Assembly (NCBI GenBank): GCA_964358205.1
Contig: CAYHNZ010000001.1
Location: 3,168 to 67,167 of the forward strand
From: an uncultured Candidatus Saccharibacteria bacterium
GTDB lineage: Bacteria; Patescibacteriota; UBA1384; 2-12-FULL-50-11
Direction of reading: 5' to 3'
DNA: 64,000 bases
Below are positions 1-16,000 of this stretch, piece by piece. Positions within the stretch are counted from its first letter, which is position 1. Each line of letters starts with the position of its first letter. The translations under genes were made by a program, and so were the position numbers. The notes under the pieces were generated by a model, which worked only from the letters and a program-made list of their open reading frames with translations, was not told the DNA's origin and ran no database searches.

Positions 1-38
1 ACAATTATTCTTTTCGTGGTCAGCGTTCTGACGAAACG

Positions 39-512
39 GTGGCGTTAGTGACCAAGCAACATGTTTGGCTCTTAATGCCGATTGCGGCGGTTTGGTTAGT
101 GATCGCTTTAGTTGTCGGTGTGGCCTTACTCGGATTTGGCGCCTCAAAAATAACTTCAATCGTCATCGGCCTGACCGTAGTCATTGGTGCTCTCTATAGC
201 TTTTACTTTTGGTTTATGTGGAACGGCTGTGATTACATTGTCACCAATCAACGAGTGATAAAAATTGATCAGGTTGGTTTGTTTAACCGGATGATTTCCG
301 AGGCCGAAATTCATCGAATCCAAGAAATATCAACCGAGATTAAGGGGCCGATCAGAACCCTGCTTAATTTTGGCACCGTGCGGATTAAAACCGCTTCTGA
401 CGATTCAAAATTAGATCTTGAAGATGTCACTGACCCCTACGATGTCCAGCAAGCCATCGTCCAAATCCAGAAACAAGCTTTAGAGCCATCTCGAGCCCCA
501 AGGCAGGTTTAG
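39..512 (+). CDS. Membrane protein with bacterial PH-like (bPH_2/DUF304-type) domain; GTG start; frame is open to window start so 5' end may be truncated
   Basis: N-terminal 2 TM helices followed by 'YIVTNQRVIKID...' motif typical of YdbS/YdbT-like bPH domains; frame open from nt 3. Confidence 0.45.
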   Translation: MALVTKQHVWLLMPIAAVWLVIALVVGVALLGFGASKITSIVIGLTVVIGALYSFYFWFMWNGCDYIVTNQRVIKIDQVGLFNRMISEAEIHRIQEISTEIKGPIRTLLNFGTVRIKTASDDSKLDLEDVTDPYDVQQAIVQIQKQALEPSRAPRQV

Positions 513-514
513 GG

Positions 515-3500
515 CTAGTTACTGCCGAGAACCTGATTTAGCTGCTCGGTCAGTTCTGGGGAGGGTTTTACCAAGAGTTTGGTCGGGAATACTTTTAACT
601 TCTCGCCCTGCATCATTCGCAGTTCTACCGGCAGGGGGCCGGGGTGGGCTTCCAGAATATTCTTTAGTTCGGCGATCGTTTCTTTAGTAGCCGATTTAGG
701 GAGATGGACAACGAAGGTTGTAGGTACTAGGGACTGGGTACTAGGTACTAGCTTTTGATTGACATTGAAATCACCATTTTTTCTAGCTAGTGGCCAGTTG
801 CCAGTTGCTAGTTGCTTCTTCGGTAAATTCACCGGATTGAGGCCATTCAAGGCCCAGGCCCGGTCAACCAAAACTTTGACGGAATTATCTTTGTCGGAAA
901 TCTTACCTTCGATCAAAACTAGCGTATCCGGCTGCCAAAGATGAGTTAATTCCTGGAAATGCGACGGAAAAACGACCAATTCTAGCGTACCGGTCAGATC
1001 TTCAAGCTCAATAAAGCCCATCGTCTGGCCATTTTTAGTGGTGATTTTTTTTAGTGTATGGATGATGCCGCCGACCCGAACCACTTGGCCGGCTTGGCTG
1101 ATGTCCAGCTCGGCGATCGGAGTGGCCAGCTCGGCCAGCAGGGCCGAAAATTGTTTGAGCGGGTGGTCAGACAAATAAAGTCCGAGCAGTTCTTTCTCCC
1201 AAATTAGATAAGCGGCCTTATCGGCGGTCACTTGCGGTAGCGCCAGTGTCGGGGCGGCACCGTTCTTGGCTCCTTCACCAAAAATCGACAGCTGGCTGGC
1301 GTCAGTCTTGCCGCTAGCGCTGACAAACTTGGTTATCAACTCTAGTCCAGCGTTCAAACGAGCCCGCTCTTCAAACCGATCGAGCGCCCCAGCTTTGATC
1401 ATATTCTCCAACACTTTTTTATTGAGATGGGGGCTATTGCGAACCAAAAAATCGTTCAAATCGGCAAACGAGCCGTTCTTTTTTCGTTCAGTGACGATCG
1501 CTTGAGCGGGGATAGTGCCGACATTTTTTATTGCTCCTAAGCCAAAACGCAGGGCTTTTTTCTCTCGGACAACAGCAAAGTCGGTAAACGATTCGTTGAC
1601 ATCCGGCGGTAAAACCGTCAGCCCCAGTCGCTCGCATTCGCTAATCTCAATCGATAATCGATCGGTATCGCCGAGGTCACTCGTCATCACCGCCGCCATA
1701 AAGCAGTCAGGGTAGTGGGCTTTGAGGTAGGCGGTTTGGAAGGCGATTAGAGCGTAGCAAGTGGCGTGACTTTTGTTGAAAGCATAAGCAGCAAAATCCT
1801 CCAAGGAACGGAAAATGTCGGTCGCCTGGTCTTTGGTGACGCCATTTTTAACCGCCCCGTCGATAAACTTGGTTTTCATCTCTTTCATCAACTTGGGGAT
1901 TTTCTTACCCATCGCTTTACGGAGGGTGTCGGCTTCGGCGCCGGTAAAGCCACACATATCTTTAGACAAACGCATCACTTGTTCCTGGTAAACAGGAATA
2001 CCGTAAGTATCGCGAAGGGCGCTTTCGGCCAACGGATGGAGGTACTTAACCTCCTCTAAACCGTTTTTACGGTCGATAAAACTTTGGATCCACTGCATCG
2101 GCCCTGGTCGGTAGAGCGAGACCATAGCCGTAATATCTTCAAATTTGGTTGGGCGCAATTCTTTGATATAGCGCCGCATCCCGCTACTTTCGAGCTGAAA
2201 GATCGATGTCGTCTCGCCACGGGCGAGCAGCTCAAAGGTTTTCTTATCATCAAGCGGCAGGTTTTCGATATCGATCTTGTCCCCGTAAACGGCTTCAATG
2301 ATTTCGGTCGCCCGGTGCATCGTCGTCAGGTTGGAAAGTCCCAGCAAGTCCATTTTAAGCAAACCGATTTTTTCAATCGGCAACATCGAGTATTGAGTGA
2401 CTTGATGGACGTCACCGCCCTGTGACGGCTGGACGGCGACATAGTTTTCCAACGGCTCTTTGGAGATAACGATGGCGCAGGCGTGTTGAGAGGCATGCCT
2501 AATCGTCCCTTCAAGGTGGGTGGCGGCGTCAATCAACTGCTTGTTTTCTGGGTCAGCGTCGTAGGCCGCTTTCAATTCTGGAGCTTGAGCGACCATTTGG
2601 GCCAGCGGGGTGTGACGGCCTTGAACGGGAGGCGGAACCAGCTTGGCCAAGGCATCGACCTTGCCGTAGGGGATGCCTAGCACCCGGCCGACATCGCGAA
2701 TAGCCGCTCGCGCCATAATTGTCCCAAAAGTAATAATACCAGCGACATGATTAGCGCCGTATTTTTCTTTCAAGTAATCAATCACTTCACCGCGGCGGGT
2801 ATCCTCAAAGTCCATATCAATATCCGGCATCGAGATTCGATTTAAGTCTAGAAAGCGCTCAAAGAGCAGACCGTACTTGAGCGGATCGACATTTGTAATG
2901 CCGGTGACAAAAGCAATAATCGAGCCAGCGGCCGAGCCACGGCCCGGGCCGACATAAATACCTTTGGAGCGGGCAAATTTAATCATATCGGCGACAATCA
3001 GGAAATAACCTGGGAAACCGGTTTTCATGACTGTTTCCAGTTCGTAATCTAGTCGAGCCCGAATTTCGAGGGTAATTTCGCCGTAGCGTTGGTGTAAACC
3101 TTTCTCACACCAAGAGCGCAAATAAGATTCCTCTGTTTCGCCCTTCGGTAGCTGGAAATGGGGCAGAAGACTTTGGCCGAGCGGAATCTCTAAATTGACC
3201 ATGTCGGCAATTTTTAGGGTATTAGACAGCGCTTCCGGCACATCACTAAAGGCCTCGGCCAATTCCTGGGGAGTTTTGAGCGAGAAATCACCGCCGTAGA
3301 CCATCCGATCGGTATCGCTGACTAATTTGCCAGTTTGAATGCAAATCAATTGGTCGTGGGCGACGGAGTCGTTGGAGTTAACATAGTGAACATCGTTGGT
3401 GGCAATCAGCGGTAGGCCAGTTTTGACGGCCAAATCTTTGAGATGAGTGTTCAGAACTTGCTGTTCGGGAATCGACGGGTGATGCTGGAGTTCGAGATAG

Positions 3501-4048
3501 TAATTATCTTTACCAAAAATCTCGCTGTACTCGCCGACGGTTTCGTTCAAGCCCTTGAAATCTTTGTTTTCGATCAGACGAGAAGTTTCGCTGGCCAGGC
3601 AGGCGGTGGTGGCAATCAGTCCTTCGTGATGGCGGGAGAGTAAATCGCGATCGATTCGAGGTTTGTAGTAGTAGCCATCTAGGTGGGCGGCGGAAGTGAG
3701 CTTGATCAAGTTTTGGTAGCCCTGAAAATTTTTAGCCAGGAGTAAAAGGTGATAGGGCTTGATGTCCTCGCCAGCGGTTTTGTCAGACATTTTGCGCCTG
3801 GCCACATAGGCCTCTACGCCGATAATCGGCTTGATGTCTTGTTTCTGACACTCCAGATAAAACTCGATCGCCCCGTACATCACACCGTGATCGGTAATGG
3901 CCAGTGCCGGCATCTCCAGCTCCTTGGCGCGACCAACTAATTCCGGCACCTTCCCCAACCCATCAAGCAATGAGTAATGCGAGTGAACATGAAGATGGAC
4001 AAAATTAGGTTTATCCGTCGTAGCTTTAGCGAAGTCGGGCTTACTCAT
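515..4048 (-). CDS. dnaE: DNA polymerase III alpha subunit (PHP domain + Pol IIIa core + OB fold), with low-complexity C-terminal tail; alternative start at 4096
   Basis: N-terminal PHP motif 'FVHLHVHSHYSLLDG', length ~1,180 aa, conserved Pol IIIa core motifs ('GFPGYFLIVAD', 'KMDLLGL'). Confidence 0.9.
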   Translation of the reverse strand: MSKPDFAKATTDKPNFVHLHVHSHYSLLDGLGKVPELVGRAKELEMPALAITDHGVMYGAIEFYLECQKQDIKPIIGVEAYVARRKMSDKTAGEDIKPYHLLLLAKNFQGYQNLIKLTSAAHLDGYYYKPRIDRDLLSRHHEGLIATTACLASETSRLIENKDFKGLNETVGEYSEIFGKDNYYLELQHHPSIPEQQVLNTHLKDLAVKTGLPLIATNDVHYVNSNDSVAHDQLICIQTGKLVSDTDRMVYGGDFSLKTPQELAEAFSDVPEALSNTLKIADMVNLEIPLGQSLLPHFQLPKGETEESYLRSWCEKGLHQRYGEITLEIRARLDYELETVMKTGFPGYFLIVADMIKFARSKGIYVGPGRGSAAGSIIAFVTGITNVDPLKYGLLFERFLDLNRISMPDIDMDFEDTRRGEVIDYLKEKYGANHVAGIITFGTIMARAAIRDVGRVLGIPYGKVDALAKLVPPPVQGRHTPLAQMVAQAPELKAAYDADPENKQLIDAATHLEGTIRHASQHACAIVISKEPLENYVAVQPSQGGDVHQVTQYSMLPIEKIGLLKMDLLGLSNLTTMHRATEIIEAVYGDKIDIENLPLDDKKTFELLARGETTSIFQLESSGMRRYIKELRPTKFEDITAMVSLYRPGPMQWIQSFIDRKNGLEEVKYLHPLAESALRDTYGIPVYQEQVMRLSKDMCGFTGAEADTLRKAMGKKIPKLMKEMKTKFIDGAVKNGVTKDQATDIFRSLEDFAAYAFNKSHATCYALIAFQTAYLKAHYPDCFMAAVMTSDLGDTDRLSIEISECERLGLTVLPPDVNESFTDFAVVREKKALRFGLGAIKNVGTIPAQAIVTERKKNGSFADLNDFLVRNSPHLNKKVLENMIKAGALDRFEERARLNAGLELITKFVSASGKTDASQLSIFGEGAKNGAAPTLALPQVTADKAAYLIWEKELLGLYLSDHPLKQFSALLAELATPIAELDISQAGQVVRVGGIIHTLKKITTKNGQTMGFIELEDLTGTLELVVFPSHFQELTHLWQPDTLVLIEGKISDKDNSVKVLVDRAWALNGLNPVNLPKKQLATGNWPLARKNGDFNVNQKLVPSTQSLVPTTFVVHLPKSATKETIAELKNILEAHPGPLPVELRMMQGEKLKVFPTKLLVKPSPELTEQLNQVLGSN
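716..751. repeat. GGGACT/AGTCCC-type hexamer microsatellite at dnaE 3' end (GGTACTAGGGACTGGGTACTAGGTACTAG); related copies at 4821-4935 in rplS tail
   Basis: Read directly; encodes 'LVPSTQSLVPTT' in DnaE and '[11 protein letters not shown]...SPVP' in L19. Confidence 0.7.
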
Positions 4049-4162
4049 CGGCTTTCTTGTTGTAACAACAAGAGGGGTTTTTAGCAAAAAGCTCAATATC
4101 TTCAGAGCATCTTAACGTTCAATTGACGCTTCCCAAGAAATTCGATATAATTTTCTCTACAA

Positions 4163-4435
4163 ATGGCGCATACAAAGGCGAAAGGTTCTAGTAAGAATAA
4201 CCGAGACTCGCAGTCGAAACGACTGGGGGTAAAGATTTATGGTGGGGAGGTGGTCAAAAAAGGCATGATCATCCTTCGTCAGCGTGGCAGTAAATATTTT
4301 ATGGGCGAAGGTGTCCAGAACGGTAACGACGATACGATTTTTGCCGTTGCCGACGGCGAGGTTAAATTTACCGAGAAAAAAGTCGTTAATTTTGCTGGTA
4401 ATCGGTCGCTTAAAACTTTTGTATCAGTAAAATGA
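4163..4435 (+). CDS. rpmA: 50S ribosomal protein L27
   Basis: '[24 protein letters not shown]...' canonical L27 N-terminus; 90 aa. Confidence 0.9.
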
Positions 4436-5085
4436 GCTTGAACGTTATCGACAAATTTCAGGTCACTCAAATGAAAGCCAAGGTCGCCGATGTTCGACCG
4501 GGCGAAACGGTTAAGGTTCACTACAAAATTCGCGAAGGCGGTAAAGAGCGTATTCAGATTTTTGAAGGTCTGGTAATCGGGACGAAAGCCACCAAATCTT
4601 ACCAAGGCTCTTTTACTGTTCGCAAAGTCGTTGACAGTATCGGTGTCGAGCGAACATTTCCGTTTCATTCGCCGTGGGTCACTAAAGTTGAGCGAGTTAA
4701 ATCCGGTAAAGTTCGCCGAGCCAAACTCAATTTTGTTCGCGAATACGCCATGTCCCGCCGTTTCAAGCTCAAAGACACGGGCTTGGCCGGGACAACCTGG
4801 GAGGAACTAGAAAAACAGGAACTAGGAGCTAGGGACTCGGGACTAGATGGAAAACCAGTACCTAGTTCCCAGTCCCCAGTCCCAGTCAATGCCCAGTCCC
4901 CAGTACCAGCCGAAGCCGAGTCCCCAGTCCCAGCTACCGCCGAACTTGTCAAAGCGGACGAAGCCACGGACAATGGCTCTGATGTCATTTCAGGGCAAGC
5001 TATTAGGGGCGAAAGCGGAGAACTGGGCGACGCAGTATCTGAAGGAAAAGAAATTCCGGATTCTGAAACGAAACTTCCGAACTAA
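4432..5085 (+). CDS. rplS: 50S ribosomal protein L19 with ~100-aa low-complexity C-terminal extension (SPVP repeats); ATGA overlap with rpmA
   Basis: L19 core ('[26 protein letters not shown]...') for first ~117 aa; ORF continues through hexamer-repeat DNA to 5085. Confidence 0.75.
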
Positions 5086-5344
5086 ATACGGCGAGATCGA
5101 CATTCTGGCTGGAGACGGTAAAACGCTGGTAATTGTTGAGGTTAAAGCTAAAACTTCCGATCGCCAAGGTGCGGCAATTGAAATGATCACCCCACGCAAA
5201 CGGGAGAAATTAATTTTGCTCTCCCATGAATTAATGATGAAATATCAGACCAACAATATCCGGATCGACGTCGTCACGGTTGACAACGCCGAAGATCAAC
5301 CAGCGATGAAGCACCATAAAGGTATAATAGAAAGTAACTATTAG
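4973..5344 (+). CDS. yraN: YraN-family (UPF0102) predicted endonuclease; start overlaps rplS tail
   Basis: '...[26 protein letters not shown]...RIDVVTV' matches YraN/UPF0102 pattern (GEIDxI, VEVK, RxDV); internal ATG at 4973 chosen over spurious upstream low-complexity ORF start 4847. Confidence 0.6.
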   Translation: MALMSFQGKLLGAKAENWATQYLKEKKFRILKRNFRTKYGEIDILAGDGKTLVIVEVKAKTSDRQGAAIEMITPRKREKLILLSHELMMKYQTNNIRIDVVTVDNAEDQPAMKHHKGIIESNY

Positions 5345-5348
5345 TTAT

Positions 5349-5480
5349 GAAAATCCCAAATCCCAATAATACAAATCCCAAACAAATCACAATATTCAAA
5401 TGCTCCAAGTTTTTGAATAGTTGGGGTTTTGGTAATTTGAGTTTGTTTGGAGCTTGGGATTTGGGATTTGGGATTTGGGG
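5349..5480. repeat. Long imperfect inverted repeat (AAATCCCAAATCCCAA... / ...TTGGGATTTGGGATTTGGG) with nested 8-bp palindrome (TATTCAAA/TTTGAATA); right arm carries G3N4G3N4G3N4G4 quadruplex motif (5456-5480)
   Basis: Read directly: left arm 5349-5390, right arm 5437-5482, four G-tracts at 5456-58, 5463-65, 5470-72, 5477-80, 12 nt before gltX ATG. Confidence 0.7.
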
Positions 5481-5492
5481 TTTTACTTATTG

Positions 5493-6950
5493 ATGGCTGA
5501 AGAAATTAGAGTTCGGATTGCTCCCAGCCCCACCGGCCGGTTTCATATTGGTACCGCCAGAACGGCCTTGTTTAATTACCTATTTGCCAAAAAGTTCGGC
5601 GGTAAATTTATTGTCCGAGTTGAAGATACTGATCAGGAGCGTCACGACGATTCGTCGCTAAAAGATATTCTCGAAGGTCTGTTGTGGTTAGGCATGAGCT
5701 GGGACGAAGGACCGGAAGTTGGTGGGCCTTATGGGCCGTACTTCCAGCAAGAACGACTCGGATTATATCAGCCGTTTGTTGACCAGCTACTGGAGAAAAA
5801 AACGGCCTACCGCTGTTACTGCACTCCGGAAGAATTGACGGCCGAGCGCGAAAGCCAGCAGGGTCATCACGCCGCACCCAAATACTCCGGTCGCTGTCGT
5901 AATTTATCAGCCCAAGAAATCGATCAGTTCGAACAGGCCGGTCGCACCAGTGCCGTTCGCTTTGTCGTCGAGCCGCAAACAGTTGGCTTTGACGATCTTG
6001 TTAAAGGCAAGGTTGAATTTGACGCATCGCTGTTTGGGGATTTTGTCATTCAAAGATCAGACGGTATGCCGCTGTTTGTTTTCTCCAATGTTATTGACGA
6101 TAATTTGATGAAAATTAGCCACGTTCTGCGAGGCGAAGAACACTTAGTCAACACCGCTAAACAAATGCTACTTGCTAACGCTCTAAATTTCTTGAGTCCG
6201 CAATTCGGACATTTCCCGCTGATTTTAAACGCTGATCGGTCGAAGATGAGTAAGCGCAAGAATCCGGTTTCAATATCGGACGACTACAAGGCCAAAGGTT
6301 TCTTGCCCGATGCCCTAGTCAACTTCATCGCCCTTTTGGGCTGGAATTCCGGTACCGACCAGGAGATATTCTCGCTGGCGGAGCTGGTTGACGAGTTTGA
6401 GATCAAGCGTGTAGGTACCAGCCCGTCAATATTTGATCCTGAAAAATTGCTCTGGATGAACGGCTACTACATTCGTCAGAAATCAATCGGTGAGATCGCC
6501 TCCGAAGCCCAAAATTTTATTACCGACAAGGAGCTCTTTCAAAAAACCCTCGCTAAGCCCGATTATTTTTTGGAAGCAATCGGCTTAGTTCACGATCGGA
6601 TGAAAATCTTGAGCGAAACGGAGGGATTAATCAACTACTTTTTCACCGCTCCCGAATATGATCCAGCGCTCTTAATCGCTAAAAAATCGACCAAAGAAAA
6701 TACCTTGGCCGCCCTCAAAGCGGCTGCTACTGTGGTTGGCGGGCTCAAAACTATGGCGCTCGATGAAGTTGAGCCAGCTCTGCGCGGTGCCGCAACAGAT
6801 CTAAAAATTAAAGATGGCGAACTGCTCTGGGCCGTCCGAGTCGCTCTATCTGGTCGCGACGCTTCACCGGGGGCATTTGAATTATTATCTGTAATTGGCA
6901 GGGAAGAGTCTTTGAAGCGCCTTAATTCTGCTATCGCTAAATTCAGGTAA
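5493..6950 (+). CDS. gltX: Glutamyl-tRNA synthetase (class I, HIGH 'HIGTAR', KMSK 'KMSKRK')
   Basis: 'IRVRIAPSPTGRFHIGTARTALFNYLFA', 'KMSKRKNP'; start moved to internal ATG 5493 matching GluRS N-terminus. Confidence 0.9.
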   Translation: MAEEIRVRIAPSPTGRFHIGTARTALFNYLFAKKFGGKFIVRVEDTDQERHDDSSLKDILEGLLWLGMSWDEGPEVGGPYGPYFQQERLGLYQPFVDQLLEKKTAYRCYCTPEELTAERESQQGHHAAPKYSGRCRNLSAQEIDQFEQAGRTSAVRFVVEPQTVGFDDLVKGKVEFDASLFGDFVIQRSDGMPLFVFSNVIDDNLMKISHVLRGEEHLVNTAKQMLLANALNFLSPQFGHFPLILNADRSKMSKRKNPVSISDDYKAKGFLPDALVNFIALLGWNSGTDQEIFSLAELVDEFEIKRVGTSPSIFDPEKLLWMNGYYIRQKSIGEIASEAQNFITDKELFQKTLAKPDYFLEAIGLVHDRMKILSETEGLINYFFTAPEYDPALLIAKKSTKENTLAALKAAATVVGGLKTMALDEVEPALRGAATDLKIKDGELLWAVRVALSGRDASPGAFELLSVIGREESLKRLNSAIAKFR

Positions 6951-7042
6951 TTATTGTTGACGGCCACCCTGTTTTAACGCATTGTTAAAGCACATGGAGG
7001 GTTTGTTTATATCCACTTACATGGGAGAGGGGGTTTTAGAGT

Positions 7043-10000
7043 ATGGCTCCACAGATTCAACGTGCCAGACGGCGATTTGACGGAGTTTACCAAGCCACTA
7101 GGGGAAAAATCCTTTGCGAGTACAATCTCCACCCAGTCAGGTTCTTCTCGGTATTTTTTTCCGTAGTTGTGTTACTCGGAGTAATCGCCTTCTTTAAGCC
7201 GGTTAGTGCCAGTATCGGTCTGCATCTAGACCAACGGGAGCTACAAAACAAATACCCGAATTTTTGGACATTGGCCGAACAAAAGAAGATCTCTCCAAGC
7301 AGCGATAAATATTTTATTGGAGACGAGCCGGTAGTGCCAAGTTCAAGCCCAGTTGTACTGGCCGTGGCCAGCGATTCTACAAACATTGAAGTAACCGCCG
7401 ACAGCGCGCACGAAGATATTGGTCAAAATCCTAACCAGTTCACAAAAAGCGTTAGCGTCGAACAGGTTGAAAGGGGGACGAAAATCTCCCAAAAGGAGAC
7501 CGATGGGCAAGCTGGCCTGTACAGAATCAAAGCCCAAGACAGGGTGACCGGTGCTGTTACGGCTGAAGAAACCATCGCTTGGGGGGTATTGGCGTTCAAC
7601 CCAGACTATTCAATCTACCCGACTGATACATCCGCCACTTTGGCGATGGCGGTCCTTGATGACCGAGGCAAGATGATCTGTGACGCCTCGCTGACGATCG
7701 AGATTACCGATCCAAACGGCAACAAAAAAATCTTATCGACCGAAAATGAGCTAGTGCTGGTAAATAATGCGTGTCTAATCTACGGCCCTACTTCTGAACC
7801 AGATTATATTGCCAATTATCAAACCGGCACTGAAGGCGATTATCAAGTCACGATAAAGGCACGTGTAGGAAGCGGTGTACGAACGCTCCACGACAAGTTT
7901 TCAGTTAAAGATAATCAGCCGTTTTACTTGCAGCGAGTCGGGGCGACTCGGACTTTTCCGAACGCTGAATATGTCTACAAACTTAATTTTCAGCCCAAAG
8001 TTGACGGCCAATATCAACTCACCGAAACTGTGCCGGCCGAGTTCATTATTTCCGACACCAGCGCCAAGATTACAGAGGTCGGTGATGTCAAAAAATTAGT
8101 CTGGCAAGTTGACGCCAAAGCTAAAGCAGACCAAACGTTGATGTTCGGTTACAAAGGGCCGCTCAAATCACCGCATCTTTATACTTTCGGCCCCGCCGAA
8201 GTCAGCTATGTCGCTGACGCTCGCTCTTCGTCGATAACTCAAAGTCAGCAATCAGCCAGCCGCAAGCTGCAAGCTGAAAGCTGGACCGAACCTCGGGCCT
8301 GGCAGATCGCCTCCGATGCGCCCTCCACCGTCAACTGGGATGGCAGCTCAAGTGCCAACTGGTCAGATGGCGCCAACTGGTCAACCAATGCCATACCACA
8401 GGCTGGCGACAACTTAGTTTTCCCGGCTGGTGCTGCAAATAAATCCAATTCCAACGATCTCGGCGAAAATATGCTGTTTAACTCGATTACTTTTAATGAC
8501 AGTGGCTACACCCTGGCTGGCAACACAATTATTGTCGGCCAAGGATTAAACGGCATCACCGACGCCGTAGTTTCTGGCGGAAACACCATTAGTCTTAACT
8601 TGCGCGTTGATGTAACTCGTTGGTTAACTGTCACCAATAGCGGTGAAACGTTAACAATTTCGGGAACGATTGCTGGCGTTGGCGGTATCACCAAAGAAGG
8701 TCAAGGCAAGTTGGTTCTATCTGGCGCAAATACCTACGGCGGCGTCACCAAAATTAACGGCGGTGATATTAGCGCACGAAGCAACACGGCTCTCGGCACC
8801 ATCGCCACCGGCACGGAAGTTGTAGGAGAAGCGGCGTTAGAATTACAAGGCACAATCGCTATCGGTCGCGAGCCGCTAACGCTGCGTGGCTACGGCGAAT
8901 CGAGCGGCGGCGCGCTTAAGAACGTTTCGGATAGTAATAGTTTTGATGGGCTGATCACTATTGCCGGTATCGCTGAAATTCAATCTGATTCTGGCACACT
9001 CACGCTAAACGGCGGCGTCACTGGTGCGGCAATCCCACTTGTTCTTGATGGGGCTGGCAATATTACGTTTGCCAAAGCCCCGGTCGCAAACACCAGCGGC
9101 TTAATCACTAAAAACGGCGCCGGGACGCTAACGTACAATTTCCCTAACACCTATACTGGTTTGACAACCGTCAATGCCGGGACGCTGACCTACGGGGTCG
9201 ATAACGCGATACTGTCTGGTGGTATCACCGTTAACGGCGGGACTGTCGATATCGCCACGTTCTCCGATATGGTCGGAACGGTGACGCTCGGGACGCTGGC
9301 CGGTGGGAGCGGCATTATTACTGGCTCGACCGGTGTGTTGAGCAGTGCGTCGTATGTGGTGTATGTCGGAACGATTAGCGCCATTATCGCCGGTGACGGT
9401 GGCACTTTAGCGAAATCGACCCCGGGAACGGTGACCCTAACTCGTCCAAATCTATTCAGCGGTGCGACCACGGTCACCGTCGGCACCCTGAAGATTCAAG
9501 ACAGCTTGGCGCTGGGCGTGATCGACGGCATTACCACTGTTTCCGCCGGTGCGACGTTGCAAGTTGATGGCACTGGCTTGTCGATCCCCGAATTTATAAC
9601 TATCTCGGGTGTCGGCCTTTTAAACCAAGGTGTGATCTGGAATTCAACCGGCAGCAACACCGTTACTGGCCTGGTGACCATGGCGGCCGCTTCAACTATT
9701 AAGGCTGATGTTAGTACTACCATTACGTACGCGACGAACGGTTTCACTGGAGCGTTCGGCTTAACCGTCAACGGGGATGGAGACACGACAATTTCCGGGC
9801 CGATTGCGACGACGAGCGGTACGCTCTCAAAAAATGGCCCTGGCACGCTCACCCTCACCGCCTTCAATCCCTACACCGGGGCCACCACAATCAATACCGG
9901 CACGCTCACCTTGAACAGTAACGGCGCCATCACTATGTCAGCTTCGATCGCCATCAACTCAAACGGGAAACTAATCGCTGATAACAGCAGCGTGGTCACT

Positions 10001-13000
10001 GATCGCATTGGCGACGCTGTCGCCGTCTCCATGAACGGTGGCTCTTGGGACTTTTACGGTAGCTCCAGTACCAATACGCTCGCGACCGCCGGCACGCTCA
10101 CGATGACCGGCGGGAAGAATGCCATCACCGTTTTTGCCGGTACCGGCGGTTACACGATTATGCGGTTTGCTTCATTTTCCCGGACCGCTGGCGCCAGAGG
10201 CCTATTTCGAGGTGCTAGTCTGGGCGCGACCCCAGCGGCCAACGTGGCCACAATTTTGTTCACCACGGCTCCAACGCTGCTCGGCGACGATGGCGTGGCC
10301 GGGACCTCGGCCGTCAGTATTATGCAGGGCGTATTTGGTGACAACTCAACCTCCGGAACTGGGACCGACATGGTCACCTACGGTCGCGGCAACAATAATG
10401 GCTTACGGCTCTTGAACGGCGCTGGCTTCAGCAATGAATACACCACAAATTTCTTGACCACCAACGCTAATATTAAAATCTCGTCCGCTACCGCCGCTAT
10501 CACTTCGCAAATTAATTCGCTCATTCTCGATTCCGGCGCCAGTATCACTAACCCCGGTTCGGCCCAAACAATCACTTTTATGTCCGGCAATATTCTTAAC
10601 CTTGAGGCTAGCGGGTCGATTGCCGGTGCTAACACCACCCTGGCCGCCGGAGCGGTTGAGTTTAGTATTAGCACGCCCCAAAGCCTCACGATCTCGTCTC
10701 TCATTACTACCACGGGCGGACTGACCAAAGGCGGCACAGGCACACTAACCTTCTCTACCGCCAAGACGTACACCGGTCTGACTTCGGTTAACGATGGAAC
10801 CTTGATCTACGGCATTAACGATGCGATTAGCTCGGGTGCGGTTACAGTCAACGACGCCACCTTAGATATCGCTACTTTTACTGACACTGTTGGGGCGGTC
10901 GTGGTCCAAGGCGGCACCATTACCGGGACTAGCGGTGTCCTGACAGCAACCTCCTACGATCTTCGGGCCGCCACGATAAATGCAATTTTAGCAGGCTCAG
11001 GAACGCTAACCGTGGTAAACACCAACGAACGCACCGATGCCGTCACGACGCTATCTAGGGACAATACCTTTACTGGTTCGATTGCGCTGACGAGTGGAGT
11101 CTTAAAGCTTGGTGGTGCTGGCGGTGGATCAAACACCCCCTTGGGGACAACTGCGGCAGGCATTACGATGACGAGCGGGGCGATGTTAGATCTGAATGGC
11201 TACACGCTTGTAACGAGTGAAGCAATTTCAGCGACCGGCACTGGCATTGCTCTACAGGGCGCAATTATTAACAGCTCAGCGAGTACGGTCACATATAACG
11301 GTGTGATTACGCAAACCGCGGCTGCTCGGATTGGGGCAAATTATGGGAAGATTATCATCGGGACCGGCGGCATCACTGGCACCTTTAACCTAACTCTTGG
11401 TGGCTTTGGCGATATTGACGTGACGAGTGCTATCACTATTAGCACCGGCACGATCACCAAAGACGGTTTCGGAATTTACACACCTTCAAGTGCGAGTTCT
11501 ACATACACCGGTCTGACGACGGTTAGCGCCGGAACACTGAAGCTTGGAGTTTCGGGCGGTGCAACGAATACCCCGTTGGGGACTAATGCTGGCGGTGTGA
11601 CCGTTACCGCCGGTGCGACGCTTGATATGAATGGCTTCTCTTTGGCGACAGTCGCCGATACCTTAACGATAAATGGAACTGGTTCCGGGACCGGAGATTT
11701 TGCAGCTGGCGCATTGGTGAATTCATCTGGAACGGGCGTTACATATGTCGGGGCTATCGTTCTCGGCTCAGCGACAACCGTCAAATCAAACTCTGGAACA
11801 ATCACCCTAACAACCGGCGGTATTACGGGTGCGTTTGCCTTAACGCTGGGTGGTACGGCGAGTAGTACAATTTCTGGTGTGATCGCGACCGCTGCCGGGA
11901 CGATCATCAAGATTGATACCGGGACGTGGACGTTGTCGAGCGTAAATACCTACACGGGCGCAGCGACAATTTACCAAGGAACAATTAAGAATGGGATCGC
12001 CGCTGCGGCCGGCGGTGGTCCGCTAGGGACGGCTGCTGGGGCAACAACAATTTTTAGCGGCGGCGTACTAGACATGAATGGTTTTTCGCTTAGCGCCTTA
12101 GCAGAAGGGTTAACGATCAACGGCTTCGGCATCGAGAGCGGTGGCGCCATGGTCAATAACTCTGGAAGCGGCGTAACCTATTTGGGGACACGGGCCCTCG
12201 GGTCTGACACTCGAACCACCAACTCCGGCGCCGGCCTGTTAACCCTAAGTGGAATTCAGAGCGGCGCCTTTGAATCTCGCTACGGGGGAGCGGGCAATAT
12301 CACCATTTCGGTGGCGATTGCCGCGACCGCCTCATCATTCTGGAAAGATGGGGCCGGAACAGTCATCTTGAGCGCCGCTAACGGTCATACCGGGGTGACG
12401 ACGGTCGCGGCTGGGACCTTACAATACGGTATTCTCAACACGCTGGCAGCTGGCGCGGTGGTAGTGAACGGCGGAACGCTCAACATCGTTTCGTTTAGCG
12501 ATACGGTCGGTGCGGTGACGTTAGTTGACGGTATGATTTCAGGTACAACCGGAATATTAACAGCAACCGGATACACTTTTGAAAGTGGCACGATCAGCGG
12601 AATTATCGCTGGTGCGGTGGCCGTCAATAAGTACACGGCCGGTACGGTTGTCATCTCCGGCGTCGAAACGATCTCCAGTACCCTGACTATCCACGCCGGA
12701 ACAATCGAGATCAGCGGCTCTGGTTCGGCGGTCGGTGTCACGGCAATTACTATCAACCTCGGTGCGACCTTAACGCTTGATAATTCAACGACGGCTGTGG
12801 CCAGTCGTCTGCTTGATACGATTGTCCTGACCATGAACGGCGGTAATTTTAATTACAAGGGCAATACCGCCAGCACCGCCGCCGAGACGATCGGACAGCT
12901 CCTTTTTTCATCTGGTCACAACACGGTTACCGTGACGCCGGGCGCCGGCGGATCGACGACGCTGACGGCGGCGACTAACCCGGGCATCAATCGTACGGCC

Positions 13001-16000
13001 GGCGCGACAGTGTTGTTTCGTGGGACAAGTCTTGGCTCGACCCCGGCCGCCAACATCTCGACCTTAAAGTTTACAACGGCGCCGATCGTTGTCGGCGGCG
13101 GCGGCGGTACGGGTACCACCACCATCAGTATTATCAAAGGCGCGTATGGGGACAATTCCCTGACTGGAACAGGGACAGACATGGTGACCCATAACGTTGG
13201 GAACACCAACGGTTTGCGACTTCTGAACGGACCTGGGTTTTCCGGTGAGTATGCAGCGAACCTGGGTACCGCTAGTGCCAACGTGAAATTGACAGGGGAT
13301 ACGGCCGCCACGACGACCAATACCAATTCGATTGTTCTGAACGGTGGCGGCGTCACGAACGCCTCGGTGACGTTGCCGATCGCCGCCACCGCCTTAGCCG
13401 GAAACATTTTAATTGCGACCGCCCATAACATTGCCGGCGCGAATACGGTGCTTGGTATAACAACATTCGAACTCAATGTTTTAGCGAACGCGGCCTCAAC
13501 CGTTTCGGCCACCGTTGGTACGGCCACGACTGGGTCGCTTACCCTGAGCGGGAGCGGGAATGTGACCTTTAGCGCGGCGAATCCATATACCGGTACAACC
13601 TTTATTAATAATGCGACGTATACCTATGGCGTGGCTAACGCGATCAGTTCCGGTGCGGCAACGGTGATTGGCGGCACCTATAATCTTAACGGCAACTCCG
13701 ATACGATCGGCGCCCTGAACGCGACAGGTGGCACCATTGCCACCGGCGCGGGCACCTTAACGCTTGGCGGTACTGTCACTACCGTCGCCAACGCCAATGT
13801 AACCTCGATAATTACTGGGAACCTCGCGCTGGGGGCAAACCGAATCTTTAACGTTGGTGACGGCCTGGTCGATAACGACCTCGTTGTTTCGGCGACGGTC
13901 ACCGGCGCCTTTACCGTGACGAAAAGTACGGGCACTGGGGTCTTAGTATTATCGGCGACCGACAGTACCTATAGCGGTAGCACCACGATTAGCACCGGAA
14001 CGTTTCGGTTCGGCAGTGGGGGGAGTGGCGCTAACGGTCCGCTCGGGACGACGGCCGCGGCGACTATTATTTCTAGCGGTGCGTCTCTTGATCTGAATGG
14101 CTATTCGTTAGCGACTGCCGAAGGACTGACTATCAGCGGTACGGGTGTTGGGGCAAACGGGGCAATTATGAACACATCATCGGCCGCCGCAACTTACCAG
14201 GGTCTAATAATCCTCGGCGCGGCGGCAACGATTACGTCGAACTACGGCGATATTACCATTTCCAATACCGGCAGTATGACTGGTACCGGATTTGCGTTGA
14301 CCTTGCGCGGTGCCGGGAATGGTTCAATAGCCACTCAAGTCAATACTTCCACGGGTGGTTCAAGGGTTAAAAATGGCTTAGGCACCTGGACGGTTTCGGG
14401 CGATGGTGGCTACACCGGCGTAACGACAATTACTCTGGGCGTATTAAAACTGGGTGCGGCTGGTGGCGCGACTAATACGCCGCTCGGCACAACCGGTACC
14501 AATACGACGATTGCCAGCGGAGCGATGCTGGACTTAAATGGTTTTACTCTTGGTACGGCCGAGCCCTTATCGATACAAGGCACCGGTATCGCCAACGCCG
14601 GGGCGATTACAACCAGCTCGGGGATCGCGACGAGTTACTCGGGGGCAATTACGATTGCGACCGCTTCCCGTATAACGAACTATGGCAACGGGACATTCTC
14701 ACTCAGCGGTGCAATTGCAGGCGGTGCCGTGGCCTTAACGACCGTCAACGCGCCGGGAACAATTACCCAGACAAGCGCCAGCGTCTGGTCGGGTACGACA
14801 TCGTCTCTCACAAAAGAAGGCTGGGGGACGACGATTTTGGCGGGTCAAAACTCAATCACTGGCTCGATGACCGTCAGTTCCGGCACTCTCCAGCTCGGGG
14901 CAAACGGCGGCGCGGCGAATACTCCGACCGGGACTATTGCCGGAGGCGTGATTGTTTCGGCCGGTGCCGTGTTTGATTTGAGCACCTTCGTGTTGGGCGG
15001 CGCATCCACCTGGGAGCCACTAACCCTTAACGGTTCGGGCATCAAAAACGGCGGCGCCTTAATTAGTGCCGCCACCAGCGGTAATAACTTTGGCGTGGTG
15101 ACTTATGGATCGAGTGCCCGCGTCGTCAACAACGCTTCGGGGACGATTACCTTTGTCGGTGCGCCAACCGGAACCTTTAACTACGTTTTCGGCGGGACAG
15201 GTCCGATCACTATTACGGGTGTAATGCCGGCGGTGGCGATTACCATCACCAAATATGACTCTGGGATCCTGCTCTTAAATGGTGCACATCTCAGCACTGG
15301 ACTGATTCGTATTAACGGCGGGACGGTCAGATACGGCGTGGCCAATGCGATTCTGGTGAACGCCGTGACCATTGCCGGCGGGACGCTCGATATTAACGGT
15401 CAGACCGATGCCGTTGGTGCCATTATCCTGATGAGCGGCACGATTACCAACGGCGGCGCGGCCGCGACGCTAACTGGAACAGCCTATACGTTTTACGGGG
15501 GCGCCATTACCGCAGTGCTGGCCGGAACGGCAATCGCAATGGCGAAAAACACCGGCGCCACGCTGACGATCAACCAAGCTTTGACGAATACCGGTACCTT
15601 AACTATCAACGCCGGCACGGTCCAGTATTTGGCTAGCAACGTCGTGGCTAACACCGCCGCGGTCATCGTGGCTGGCGGCACGCTGGATATCGGCGCGCAA
15701 ACGGATACCGTGGCCGCCGTGACCCTGACCAGCGGAGCGATCACTGGCAGTACCGGAATTTTAACCGGCACTTCCTACGCCGTTGCCAGTGGCACGATCA
15801 GCGCGATTTTAGCCGGCGCGGTTACTCTGGCCAAAACCACGGCCGGTACGGTCACGCTCTCGGGTGTGAATACGTACTCGGGCGTTACGACGATCAGCGG
15901 TGGAGTCTTAAGTGTTGGCACTATTGGTAATGGTGGTGTGGCCGGGAACCTGGGAGCGGCGCCGGCCGCCGCATCCAATATTGTTTCCAATACCGGTACC

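What the first reader, a model, noticed from the sequence alone, without database searches (positions are those of the whole stretch)
716..5085. Hexamer microsatellite (GGGACT/AGTCCC) builds C-terminal tails on two essential proteins; L19 tail overlaps yraN
The same simple repeat occurs at the 3' end of dnaE, where it encodes LVPSTQSLVPTT. It also occurs, in both orientations, at 4821-4935 in an ~100-aa extension of ribosomal protein L19, where it encodes (Q/E)SPVP repeats. Because of the repeat, all three frames are open here, and the L19 ORF runs 112 nt into the YraN-family gene. Either L19 genuinely carries a Pro-rich tail with a long gene overlap, or there is a missed stop or frameshift in the repeat.
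Basis: seen in the sequence. Interest (0 to 1): 0.5.

Follow-up and report, generated by a model that had tools for sequence, protein, structure and literature searches.

The report
Acidic L19 tail overlapping yraN
In this groundwater Berkelbacteria (CPR) genome, ribosomal protein L19 really does carry a ~100-residue disordered acidic tail whose last ~35 codons are read in a second frame across the start of the nuclease gene yraN. The tail is shared across the lineage, and the "hexamer microsatellite" is an ordinary 7-base tandem repeat, arranged as hairpins, that sits only in variable linkers.

Summary
The sequence features are real but were partly mis-described. The repeats have period 7, not 6, and each site is an inverted pair of ~4-unit heptamer arrays that folds into a regularly bulged hairpin. 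They sit in the variable part of the L19 tail, in an internal DnaE linker 66-101 residues before the C-terminus (not a tail), and in the yraN-gltX spacer.

The L19 extension is not an error. The repeat region is identical in five independent assemblies or cluster members. All 120 best homologs, three of them named Candidatus Berkelbacteria, are 148-287 aa long. Of these, 115 carry a tail of median 81 aa and net charge -19.

The L19 frame has no stops in six of six divergent genomes, while the other forward frames do. yraN overlaps the L19 3' end by 92-113 nt in 8 of 10 lineages. YraN is the better-conserved frame in 15 of 15 pairs. The tail-like reading persists over yraN even where L19 stops earlier (L212), so the distal tail is an overprinted by-product.

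Gene callers usually drop yraN. Heptamer arrays of this type (GGGGA(C/T)T, TAACTGA) are already known from cyanobacteria, Xanthomonas and Beggiatoaceae. Overall this is a modestly interesting, largely explained finding.

The parts
515..4048 (-). dnaE (DNA polymerase III alpha). The ORF is open to 4096; the ATG at 4048 gives the 1177-aa product called in the public record.
   Evidence: Pfam PHP, DNA_pol3_alpha, finger, HHH_6 and OB-fold domains. Gene call in L001.
715..823 (.). Heptamer-array hairpin inside the dnaE linker. The arms are 721-751 (TAGGTAC x4.4) and 786-816 (GCTAGTT x4.4). They encode DnaE residues ~1093-1127 (KKQLATGNWPLARK...LVPSTQSLVPTT), between the OB fold and the conserved C-terminal domain.
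   Evidence: TRF. Fold gives z -5.0 on the mRNA strand and -3.6 on the + strand, with 5-bp segments at a 7-nt period. The sister genome L213 has arrays in register at the same place with different units, and 7 of 21 predicted pairs are compensatory.
4123..4151 (+). Sigma-70-like promoter (TTGACG-17-TATAAT, 11 of 12 matches) upstream of rpmA. It is the likely start of the rpmA-rplS-yraN(-gltX) transcript.
   Evidence: Consensus scan only.
4163..4435 (+). rpmA (ribosomal protein bL27). It overlaps the rplS start by 4 nt.
   Evidence: Pfam PF01016, E 7e-30.
4432..4776 (+). rplS core (bL19 residues 1-115).
   Evidence: Pfam PF01245, E 1.3e-33, residues 4-106. AlphaFold pLDDT is 82-92 for residues 21-90.
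4777..5085 (+). bL19 C-terminal tail (residues 116-217). It is acidic and predicted disordered. It consists of a proximal linker (4777-4981) and a distal part (4982-5085) read across yraN.
   Evidence: The tail is present in 115 of 120 homologs, with median length 81 aa and net charge -19. pLDDT is 39-58 per 10-residue block over residues 111-217. The L19 frame has 0 stops in 6 of 6 genomes.
4817..4887 (+). Inverted pair of heptamer arrays in the L19 linker. The arms are AGGAACT/AGGGACT x4.3 (4817-4846) and CCAGTCC x4.9 (4855-4887). They encode [22 protein letters not shown].
   Evidence: TRF. Hairpin -31 kcal/mol, z -3.6. A similar pair lies in the L087 L19 tail.
4868..4939 (+). In-frame 24-nt (8-codon) triplication derived from the right arm. 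It encodes [16 protein letters not shown] and ESPVPATA.
   Evidence: Three copies at 100%, 83% and 79% identity. TRF score 99.
4982..5344 (+). yraN (UPF0102, a PD-(D/E)xK endonuclease). ATG 4982 is conserved in all relatives; an alternative ATG lies at 4973.
   Evidence: Pfam PF02021, E 5e-22. tblastn gives 50-79% identity to the same gene in 7 relatives. Start alignment.
4982..5085 (+). Dual-coding overlap. The last 34 L19 codons plus the stop lie in frame 0, and the first 34 YraN codons lie in frame +1. The L19 stop sits in the YraN T-K codons, 2-3 codons before the catalytic GEID motif.
   Evidence: Both frames are open and the third frame has 2-4 stops in every genome. The overlap is 92-113 nt in 8 of 10 lineages.
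5350..5484 (+). Long hairpin filling the yraN-gltX spacer. The arms are AAATCCC x4.4 (5351-5382) and TTGGGAT x4.3 (5454-5483). The right arm is G3N4G3N4G3N4G4.
   Evidence: -55 kcal/mol, z -6.4. Analogous hairpins with different units occupy the same spacer in L087, L089, L090, L211 and L212. No Rfam family reaches threshold.
5494..6950 (+). gltX (glutamyl-tRNA synthetase). The ATG at 5494 matches MAEEIRV in relatives.
   Evidence: ORF. Pfam tRNA-synt_1c in gene calls.

Best explanation
The window comes from a Candidatus Berkelbacteria (CPR) genome. Three relatives at 49-54% L19 identity carry that name.

**L19 tail.** bL19 has a lineage-wide, intrinsically disordered, strongly acidic C-terminal tail. 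I infer that an ancestor lost the rplS stop codon. Translation then ran through the former rplS-yraN spacer and on into yraN, one frame off, until the first stop. That stop falls in the YraN Thr-Lys codons just before the catalytic GEID motif.
- The proximal ~55-65 residues are kept open by selection. This is shown by the absence of stops in every lineage while the other frames are closed.
- The distal ~34 residues are an overprinted reading of the yraN 5' end. Their apparent conservation is imposed by YraN.
- Ribosomes finishing L19 therefore traverse the yraN start site. I infer, without a test, that this couples or throttles translation of the nuclease.

**Repeat.** The "microsatellite" is a heptanucleotide simple-sequence repeat. 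It is of the kind long known from cyanobacteria, Xanthomonas and Beggiatoaceae (GGGGA(C/T)T, TAACTGA) and is generally attributed to polymerase slippage.
- In Berkelbacteria it occurs as inverted pairs of ~4-unit arrays that form bulged hairpins.
- Most pairs lie in intergenic spacers. Some lie in coding DNA, but only where the protein is a variable disordered linker that tolerates any open frame (the L19 tail linker and the DnaE OB-to-C-terminal-domain linker).
- In the window's L19, an in-frame 24-nt triplication of the right arm added the (Q/E)SPVP motifs.
For: **Identity and assembly.**
- Three relatives (P0039, P0047, P0111) are named Candidatus Berkelbacteria. The window is 100% identical to a Hainich groundwater contig.
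- The repeat region is identical in assemblies L001, L002 and L003 and in cluster members P0175 and P0176.

**Tail.**
- The 120 best homologs are 148-287 aa long. In 115 of them the tail has median length 81 aa and net charge -19.
- In non-CPR L19 proteins, the match ends at about query residue 104 in most of the 80 loci. In most of those measured, the protein ends ~92-100 residues after the GETV motif, against 194 here.
- The core is confidently folded and the tail is predicted disordered.
- The L19 frame has 0 stops in a 163-235-nt linker in 6 of 6 genomes. The other forward frames have 1-9 stops.

**Overlap.**
- yraN lies in the +1 frame, with its ATG 92-113 nt before the L19 stop, in W, L004/L213, L087, L088, L089, L090, L214 and L215.
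- The YraN Pfam domain starts at 5015 and the GEID motif follows the L19 stop directly.
- The YraN frame is more conserved than the L19 frame in 15 of 15 pairs (53% against 32% identity).
- In L212, L19 stops 73 nt before yraN. Even so, the same alternative frame over yraN is still open, tail-like, and ends at the same stop.

**Repeats.**
- Only period 7 is enriched.
- The hairpins have z-scores of -3.6 to -6.4.
- Period-7 arrays number 13 in 119 kb of Berkelbacteria loci, against 13 in 449 kb of control loci.
- The DnaE site is a variable linker.
- Literature precedent: Rehm 2015 (PMC4692102); MacGregor 2015 (PMC4679880); and bL19 listed as enlarged in CPR by Tsurumaki 2022 (PMC9297842).
Against: - There are no protein-level data. 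Translation of the tail and of YraN from the overlapped start is inferred from sequence alone.
- The stop-loss and ex-spacer origin is a reconstruction. L212's separate arrangement could be ancestral rather than derived.
- Slippage alone does not obviously explain three observations. The arrays come as inverted pairs. The same positions keep hairpins while the unit sequence turns over. The two arms change in a compensatory way. Some structural selection or templated correction may also act.
- The hairpin in the L19 linker is not consistently strong in relatives (z -1.9 to -3.5).
- Taxonomic assignment rests on names attached to relatives, not on the window's own record (one search returned no name).
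Confidence: 0.85

Rival explanations
1. The heptamer-array hairpins are selected structural elements, not slippage debris. They would act as RNA or DNA hairpins, or as G-quadruplex/i-motif switches. Possible roles are transcript-end or stability determinants, RNase sites, or translation regulators. On this view they are conserved by position and shape while their sequence drifts.
For: - The yraN-gltX spacer holds a hairpin of inverted heptamer (once octamer) arrays in 6 of 7 lineages with DNA for that spacer. The units are unrelated (AAATCCC, ATTGAAA, AGTTATC/TGAAAAC, AATGTCT/ATTAGTA, TTTAGAC), with z from -2.7 to -6.4.
- The dnaE-linker hairpin is in register in W and L213 with different units, and 7 of 21 pairs are compensatory.
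- Arrays cluster at ~4.3-4.6 units, echoing the four-unit preference reported by Rehm 2015.
- The right arm at 5454-5484 is a canonical G4 motif.
Against: - The covariation rests on only two sequences.
- Arms made of repeats can be homogenised and made complementary by slippage or template switching without any selection.
- L213 has lost three of these spacers entirely, with genes abutting or overlapping.
- No terminator-like call and no Rfam family.
- Many units are A/T-rich and cannot form G4.
- No function was found in the best-studied cases.
Confidence: 0.3
2. The whole L19 tail is selectively neutral read-through with no role. It is tolerated simply because a disordered appendage on L19 does no harm.
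For: - The distal third is explained by yraN constraint alone.
- L212 and L211 lack the distal part.
- The linker sequence is hypervariable.
- The tail is predicted to be disordered.
Against: - A neutral 55-80-codon stretch should acquire stops. None is seen in the L19 frame in any of 10 lineages or 115 homologs, while neighbouring frames carry 1-9 stops.
- Composition (net charge about -19) and the motifs W-E-E after the core and VAExxETxxN are retained. They persist even in L212, where the overlap is gone.
Confidence: 0.1
3. There is no real dual-coding overlap. Either yraN starts downstream of the L19 stop, or it is a decaying pseudogene in these genomes.
For: Gene callers omit yraN in five loci: L001, L004, L088, L090 and L089, where an antisense ORF was called instead. 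There is no consistent Shine-Dalgarno motif before the ATG (from reading the sequences).
Against: - The UPF0102 Pfam match begins at 5015, inside the overlap.
- The N-terminal helix and first strand ([23 protein letters not shown]) are conserved at 53% mean identity, with a conserved ATG.
- The catalytic GEID motif begins 2-3 codons after the L19 stop, so a downstream start would delete part of the fold.
- The ORF is intact in all 10 lineages at 50-79% identity.
Confidence: 0.03
4. The tail is an artefact of sequencing or assembly within the repeat, that is, a missed stop or a frameshift.
For: Repeats are error-prone in short-read assemblies. One relative contig (L211) does show a frame change near the yraN start.
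Against: - The tail is identical in five independent assemblies or cluster members.
- A tail of similar length exists in relatives that have no repeat.
- The stop position relative to yraN is conserved.
Confidence: 0.02

Closest known systems
Enlarged ribosomal proteins of CPR bacteria (Tsurumaki et al. 2022, RNA 28:1041, PMC9297842)
   Same: That survey lists bL19 among the ribosomal proteins that are larger in CPR bacteria than elsewhere. The Berkelbacteria L19 tail is an instance of this.
   Different: In the passages retrieved by term search, the paper gives no anatomy for bL19. Found here: the tail is C-terminal, acidic and disordered, has a variable linker, and its distal third is read across the start of yraN.
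G-rich heptameric simple-sequence repeats: GGGGA(C/T)T in Nostoc and GGGAATC in Xanthomonas (Rehm et al. 2015, PMC4692102). The cyanobacterial STRR1 unit CCCCA(G/A)T (Mazel 1990) is recalled from memory.
   Same: The 7-nt unit is shared. The units AGGGACT/GGGGACT and GGGATTT are near-identical. About 4 units per array. Paired inverted arrays, as in Xanthomonas. Location between co-directional genes close to ORF ends. Some arrays lie inside genes. A metagenome scan for CCCAGTCCCCAGTACC hit many long NCCCAGT arrays.
   Different: Found here in a CPR lineage. Many arrays in the same genomes have unrelated A/T-rich units. Two sit in frame inside essential genes. G4 formation was not tested.
TAACTGA heptamer direct repeats of Beggiatoaceae, cyanobacteria and Bacteroidetes (MacGregor 2015, PMC4679880)
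   Same: Short heptamer arrays lie just upstream of start codons, including in ribosomal-protein operons. Occasional in-ORF copies are confined to protein termini or non-domain regions. Relative L212 carries AGTTATC x4.6, the exact complement of TAACTGA, in the spacer upstream of the gltX start.
   Different: One dominant unit is found genome-wide there. Here there are many different units, usually as inverted pairs.
Same-strand overlapping (overprinted) gene pairs
   Same: Two open frames lie over the same ~104 nt and the third frame is closed. The older frame (YraN) is better conserved than the newer one (L19 tail). This asymmetry is the classic signature of overprinting (general knowledge).
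   Different: The novel frame is not a new gene. It is a C-terminal extension of an essential ribosomal protein. The overlap is conserved across a class-level bacterial lineage rather than in a virus.
Tandem repeats that create intrinsically disordered regions in proteins (Borg elements, Schoelmerich et al. 2023, PMC9879509; abstract seen)
   Same: Fast-evolving nucleotide repeats are translated into disordered, low-complexity protein segments.
   Different: Here the units are 7 nt, degenerate, arranged as inverted pairs, and only secondarily amplified in frame (24 nt x3).

Membership tests
Ribosomal protein bL19 (PF01245) | Significant match to the L19 profile across the core domain | tested here: met
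   E 1.3e-33, 115.7 bits, residues 4-106 against profile positions 1-102 of 111. The core is folded with pLDDT 82-92.
YraN / UPF0102 (PF02021), PD-(D/E)xK endonuclease | Profile match above the gathering score | tested here: met
   E 5.1e-22, 78.5 bits against a cutoff of 23.6, full profile 1-80.
YraN / UPF0102 (PF02021), PD-(D/E)xK endonuclease | Catalytic D ... E-x-K motif | tested here: met
   GEIDIL ... VIVEVKAK is read directly in the translation. The family's role as a transformation D-loop endonuclease is taken from Hardy et al., bioRxiv 10.1101/2024.02.06.579203. Activity was not tested.
Heptameric SSR class (GGGGA(C/T)T / GGGAATC; STRR-like) | Tandem unit of 7 nt | tested here: met
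   TRF gives period 7 for six arrays in 716-5485. Only period 7 exceeds shuffles.
Heptameric SSR class (GGGGA(C/T)T / GGGAATC; STRR-like) | Unit consensus GGGGA(C/T)T or its complement | tested here: inconclusive
   Met by the L19 arrays (AGGGACT, CGGGACT; complement CCCCAGT). Nearly met by the spacer arrays (TTGGGAT). Not met by the dnaE arrays (TAGGTAC, GCCAGTT) or by the arrays in relatives.
Heptameric SSR class (GGGGA(C/T)T / GGGAATC; STRR-like) | Preference for about four units and formation of G-quadruplexes | not testable with these tools
   Copy numbers of 4.3-4.9 fit the preference, and 5454-5484 is G3N4G3N4G3N4G4. G4 formation needs CD or other biophysics.
Phase-variable contingency locus (SSR-driven frameshifting) | Repeat-number polymorphism between strains or reads that switches the reading frame | tested here: not met
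   The repeat region is identical in L001, L002, L003, P0175 and P0176. Read-level data were not available.
Same-strand dual-coding overlap | Both frames open and conserved across lineages, with the third frame closed | tested here: met
   The L19 and yraN frames have 0 stops and the third frame has 2-4 stops in each of 6 genomes. The overlap is present in 8 of 10 lineages.
Same-strand dual-coding overlap | Both products actually translated | not testable with these tools
   Needs proteomics or ribosome profiling.
Rho-independent terminator | GC-rich stem with a short loop, followed by a U-tract | tested here: not met
   The scan reports no terminator at 4817-4887 or 5350-5490. The spacer hairpin is followed only by UUUU, and gltX starts 10 nt later with no promoter call in between.
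MITE or other small mobile element | Multiple near-identical copies with terminal inverted repeats and target-site duplications | tested here: not met
   Each site has its own unit sequence. Only the L19 and dnaE arrays resemble each other (85% over 33 nt). No duplication was seen at the junctions. The junctions were inspected by eye only.
Known structured RNA (Rfam 15) | Match reaching a family's gathering score | tested here: not met
   The only hit in 1-7000 is a miRNA-precursor model at 26.6 bits against 120 required.

The most novel reading that the evidence does not exclude
Berkelbacteria maintain a class of heptamer-periodic hairpins as selected structural signals. Each is an inverted pair of ~4-unit arrays with 5-6-bp segments and regular bulges. 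They are conserved in position and shape while their sequence turns over through compensatory, concerted change. Some are embedded in frame in essential genes (dnaE, rplS). On this reading the rplS tail, its hairpin and the 104-nt overlap together form a device. It sets how many ribosomes reach or occlude the yraN start, tying expression of a recombination nuclease to ribosomal-protein synthesis.
Probability: 0.15. Interest if true: 0.6.

Novelty: new member of a known kind. Interest (0 to 1): 0.35.

Why it matters
1. **Annotation.** yraN is omitted from the gene calls in five loci (L001, L004, L088, L089, L090) and shortened or mis-called in two more, because it is hidden under the L19 tail. 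Surveys of natural-transformation machinery (YraN/ComM) in CPR bacteria would therefore wrongly score this lineage as lacking YraN.
2. **Overlapping genes.** This is a clean, evolutionarily replicated bacterial example of a long same-strand overlap created by extending an essential protein over its neighbour. There is a natural control, L212. It shows that the apparent conservation of the new frame is a by-product of the old one.
3. **Ribosome biology.** The tail adds an anatomical description to the general observation that CPR ribosomal proteins carry lineage-specific extensions.
4. **Repeat biology.** Heptanucleotide repeats of the cyanobacterial/Xanthomonas type are extended to CPR bacteria, with positional conservation that could be used to test whether they have a function.

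Tried and rejected
- **Genome-contig scan with the L19 alignment.** The loci served only as controls for L19 length and repeat density.
- **DnaE C-terminus protein search.** It returned only fragments, but these were enough to show the variable linker.
- **Metagenome scan for CCCAGTCCCCAGTACC.** There were at least 120 hits and none lay next to an L19 gene. Chance hits are expected for a 16-mer in a collection of that size. Many others lie inside long NCCCAGT heptamer arrays in contigs of 41-72% GC. The scan showed that the unit is widespread, not that the element is mobile.
- **Conserved RNA hairpin in every L19 linker.** Sliding-window z-scores are weak or inconsistent in relatives, so this was not adopted.
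- **P0019 as a natural L19-YraN fusion.** Rejected. The contig has an in-frame TGA that the caller read through, plus a frame change. The ancestral distal-tail frame is still intact.
- **Terminator and known-RNA readings of the hairpins.** No support.
- **Literal hexamer enrichment.** Rejected.
- **P0115 locus.** No DNA was available. Its 267-nt L19-gltX gap is compatible with an overlapped yraN, but this is inference only.

Full report
**What is in the window**

Positions 1-7000 carry the following genes:
- a bPH-domain gene (39-512, +)
- dnaE (515-4048/4096, -)
- rpmA/bL27 (4163-4435, +)
- rplS/bL19 (4432-5085, +; 217 aa)
- a UPF0102/YraN gene in the +1 frame (ATG 4973 or 4982, ending at 5344)
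- gltX (ATG 5494, ending at 6950)

A strong sigma-70-like promoter lies at 4123-4151. The window is 100% identical to a Hainich groundwater metagenome contig. Named relatives of its L19 are Candidatus Berkelbacteria.

**The repeat is a heptamer arranged as hairpins**

Tandem Repeats Finder reports period 7 for six arrays in the first 5.5 kb. These are 721-751, 786-816, 4817-4846, 4855-4887, 5351-5382 and 5454-5483, each with 4.3-4.9 copies.

An independent scan found 7 arrays of at least 4 copies at period 7, against 0 in shuffles. It found none at periods 6 or 8-12.

The literal hexamer GGGACT/AGTCCC is not enriched in the window (23 copies against ~26 expected). It occurs only once in dnaE.

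The three sites are each an inverted pair of arrays. They fold into hairpins with 5-6-bp segments and a regular 7-nt bulge period:

| Site | Folding result |
|---|---|
| dnaE linker, mRNA strand | z = -5.0 |
| L19 tail | z = -3.6 |
| yraN-gltX spacer | -55 kcal/mol, z = -6.4 |

In the L19 tail, the right arm was secondarily amplified as an in-frame 24-nt unit repeated 3 times (4868-4939). This gives [16 protein letters not shown] and ESPVPATA. All three forward frames are open only at 4866-4979, because the left arm has TAG stops in the two other frames.

**DnaE: an internal linker, not a tail**

The repeat-encoded peptides occupy residues ~1093-1127 of the 1193-codon ORF. They lie between the OB fold and a conserved 66-residue C-terminal domain (F.V.LP...LK..L...PG..VELR...). 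This linker is hypervariable among relatives.

The sister genome L213 is ~83% identical in dnaE. It has heptamer arrays at the same place and in register, but with different units: GGCTTTC/GGCTGTC and GCCGTTA, against TAGGTAC and GCCAGTT here. These arrays also fold into a periodic hairpin. RNAalifold finds 7 of 21 pairs changed on both sides. With only two sequences this is suggestive, not proof.

**The L19 tail is genuine and lineage-wide**

- The 217-aa product, including the repeat region, is identical in three further assemblies and two cluster members. Only the N-terminal part differs in the cluster members: P0176 has one substitution and P0175 has a divergent first ~40 residues. There is therefore no sign of assembly error or repeat-length variation.
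- All 120 best homologs are 148-287 aa long. The 287-aa entry is a mis-called fusion.
- 115 homologs share the FKLKD end of the core, followed by a tail with a median of 81 residues, ~30% D+E and a median net charge of -19.
- In the non-CPR L19 genes from the control scan, the match ends at about query residue 104 in most of the 80 loci. In most of those measured, the protein ends ~92-100 residues after the GETV motif, against 194 here.
- AlphaFold with the family alignment folds the core confidently (pLDDT 82-92). It leaves residues 111-217 at a mean pLDDT of 39-58 per 10-residue block.
- In six divergent genomes, the L19 frame has no stop in the 163-235-nt stretch between the core and yraN. 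The other two forward frames have 1-9 stops.
- Relatives such as L004 have a tail of the same length with no repeat at all. The repeat therefore did not build the tail. It occupies the tail's variable middle.
- L087, a more distant relative, has a similar inverted pair in its linker: GGGGAACTGGGTGCTGGGAACTTGGAACTGG ... CCCAGTCCCCAGTACCTAGTGCCGAGTCCCCA. It sits at a somewhat different position.
- Tsurumaki et al. 2022 already list bL19 among the ribosomal proteins that are enlarged in CPR bacteria.

**The overlap with yraN is real and conserved, and the distal tail is a by-product**

- yraN lies in the +1 frame with a conserved ATG 104 nt before the L19 stop in W (4982), L004/L213, L088, L089, L090, L214 and L215. 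The distance is 92 nt in L087. W, L214 and L215 have an additional ATG 9 nt further upstream.
- The UPF0102 profile match begins at 5015. The L19 stop sits in the YraN Thr-Lys codons immediately before the catalytic GEID motif. No downstream start could therefore give an intact enzyme.
- In the overlap, both coding frames are open and the third frame has 2-4 stops.
- The YraN reading is more conserved than the L19 reading in 15 of 15 genome pairs (53% against 32% identity).
- L212 is the decisive natural control. Its L19 (170 aa) stops before a 73-nt spacer, so the genes do not overlap. Yet the same alternative frame across the yraN 5' end is still open. It reads like the tail (DVSEQSAGSESRELGSGAASEEAAPDPAEKSAD) and ends at the same stop.
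- The motif conservation in the last ~34 tail residues is therefore imposed by YraN. It says nothing about tail function.
- The proximal tail, including W-E-E and the VAExxETxxN motif, is retained in L212. It is the part that appears to be under its own selection.
- P0019, annotated as an L19-UPF0102 fusion, is a call that read through an in-frame TGA after a frame change.

**Mechanism**

Shown:
- The tail is lineage-wide, disordered and acidic.
- The 92-113-nt dual-coding overlap is conserved.
- YraN is the dominant frame in the overlap.
- The heptamer arrays are paired as hairpins in linkers and spacers.

Inferred:
- An ancestral stop loss let rplS read through the former spacer into yraN. 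Such spacers typically carry these hairpins in this lineage.
- Ribosomes completing L19 run over the yraN start site, coupling or limiting YraN synthesis.
- The arrays arise and turn over by slippage, as proposed for heptameric SSRs generally (citing Mrazek 2007). In coding DNA they persist only where a disordered linker tolerates them.

**Heptamer hairpins across Berkelbacteria**

- Period-7 arrays number 13 in 119 kb of Berkelbacteria loci, against 13 in 449 kb of control loci. They dominate the repeat spectrum only in the Berkelbacteria set.
- The yraN-gltX spacer carries a hairpin of inverted arrays in W, L087, L089 (octamers), L090, L211 and L212, with unrelated units. L213 has no spacer there.
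- Compared with L213, the window genome also has array-bearing spacers between ndk and the glycosyltransferase gene, and between that gene and the bPH gene.
- L212 carries AGTTATC x4.6, the complement of the TAACTGA repeat of Beggiatoaceae and cyanobacteria.
- The units GGGACT and GGGATTT match the GGGGA(C/T)T class of Nostoc. The inverted pairing and the ~4-unit preference match Xanthomonas.
- No Rfam family and no terminator call fits the hairpins.
- Whether the positional conservation and compensatory change reflect selection or templated homogenisation is open. I give the functional reading about 0.3.

**Verdict**

The "microsatellite builds tails" framing is wrong.

The components belong to known kinds:
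- CPR ribosomal-protein extensions
- overprinted same-strand overlaps
- heptameric SSRs

The combination is a tidy new example. Its practical consequence is that yraN is missed or mis-called by gene callers in most of the loci examined. YraN is a transformation D-loop endonuclease according to Hardy et al..

Noticed in passing
window 4982-5344; L001, L004, L088, L089, L090: Public gene calls omit yraN wherever it is overlapped by the L19 tail. In L089 a spurious 98-aa antisense ORF is called instead. In L087 the call starts 30 nt late. Presence/absence surveys of YraN in CPR bacteria would be biased by this.
   Followed up: yes
L001 152-307 and 1403-1452 (upstream of the window on the same contig): Further heptamer arrays (AGCTCAA, AGTTTTG x7.6, TTTAGAC, AAGGCTG, ACAAGTT) fill the ndk-glycosyltransferase and glycosyltransferase-bPH spacers. 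In sister genome L213 the same genes are only 2 and 11 nt apart.
   Followed up: partly
L212 3957-4020: A perfect AGTTATC x4.6 array, the complement of the Beggiatoaceae/cyanobacterial TAACTGA repeat. It is paired with TGAAAAC x4.3 as a hairpin (z -5.1) ending ~20 nt upstream of the gltX start.
   Followed up: partly
window 8253-8286: A period-7 array (AGCTGCA x3.7) lies inside the giant gene at 7043-19036, showing a third in-ORF heptamer array in this window.
   Followed up: no
window 7043-19036: A single 3997-aa ORF with a PATR (autotransporter-associated repeat) Pfam hit in the public gene call. It takes up 19% of the window and is probably a giant surface protein.
   Followed up: no
L087 1-2636 and L088 1-4260: DnaE of these more distant Berkelbacteria is ~1530-1540 aa and contains an intein (Intein_splicing plus an endonuclease hit) in the finger domain. 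The window's DnaE (1177 aa) has none.
   Followed up: no
L211 (P0019), 275-1138: The 287-aa "L19-UPF0102 fusion" in the protein collection comes from reading an in-frame TGA as sense on a 1.4-kb Logan contig. The contig also has a frame change just upstream of yraN, either a real variant or an assembly error.
   Followed up: partly
P0175 (cluster member of the window L19): A 219-aa variant is identical from residue ~40 onward but has an unrelated L19-like N-terminus. It is probably a chimeric assembly of two co-occurring Berkelbacteria strains.
   Followed up: no
L213 6685-9626, compared with window 4049-4162: The sister genome has YcaO, TrmB-family and PP-binding (carrier protein) genes inserted between dnaE and rpmA. 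The window has only a 114-nt spacer with the promoter. A LAGLIDADG-like ORF follows gltX in L213.
   Followed up: no
window 5454-5484 and the minus strand of 4868-4939: Canonical G-quadruplex motifs are present: G3N4G3N4G3N4G4 in the spacer, and multiple GGG(G)ACT tracts on the template strand of the rplS tail. The complementary strands are i-motif-capable.
   Followed up: no
L089 4886-4917: A perfect AAATCCG x4.6 array lies in the rpmA-rplS spacer of a relative. In the window these two genes overlap by 4 nt.
   Followed up: no
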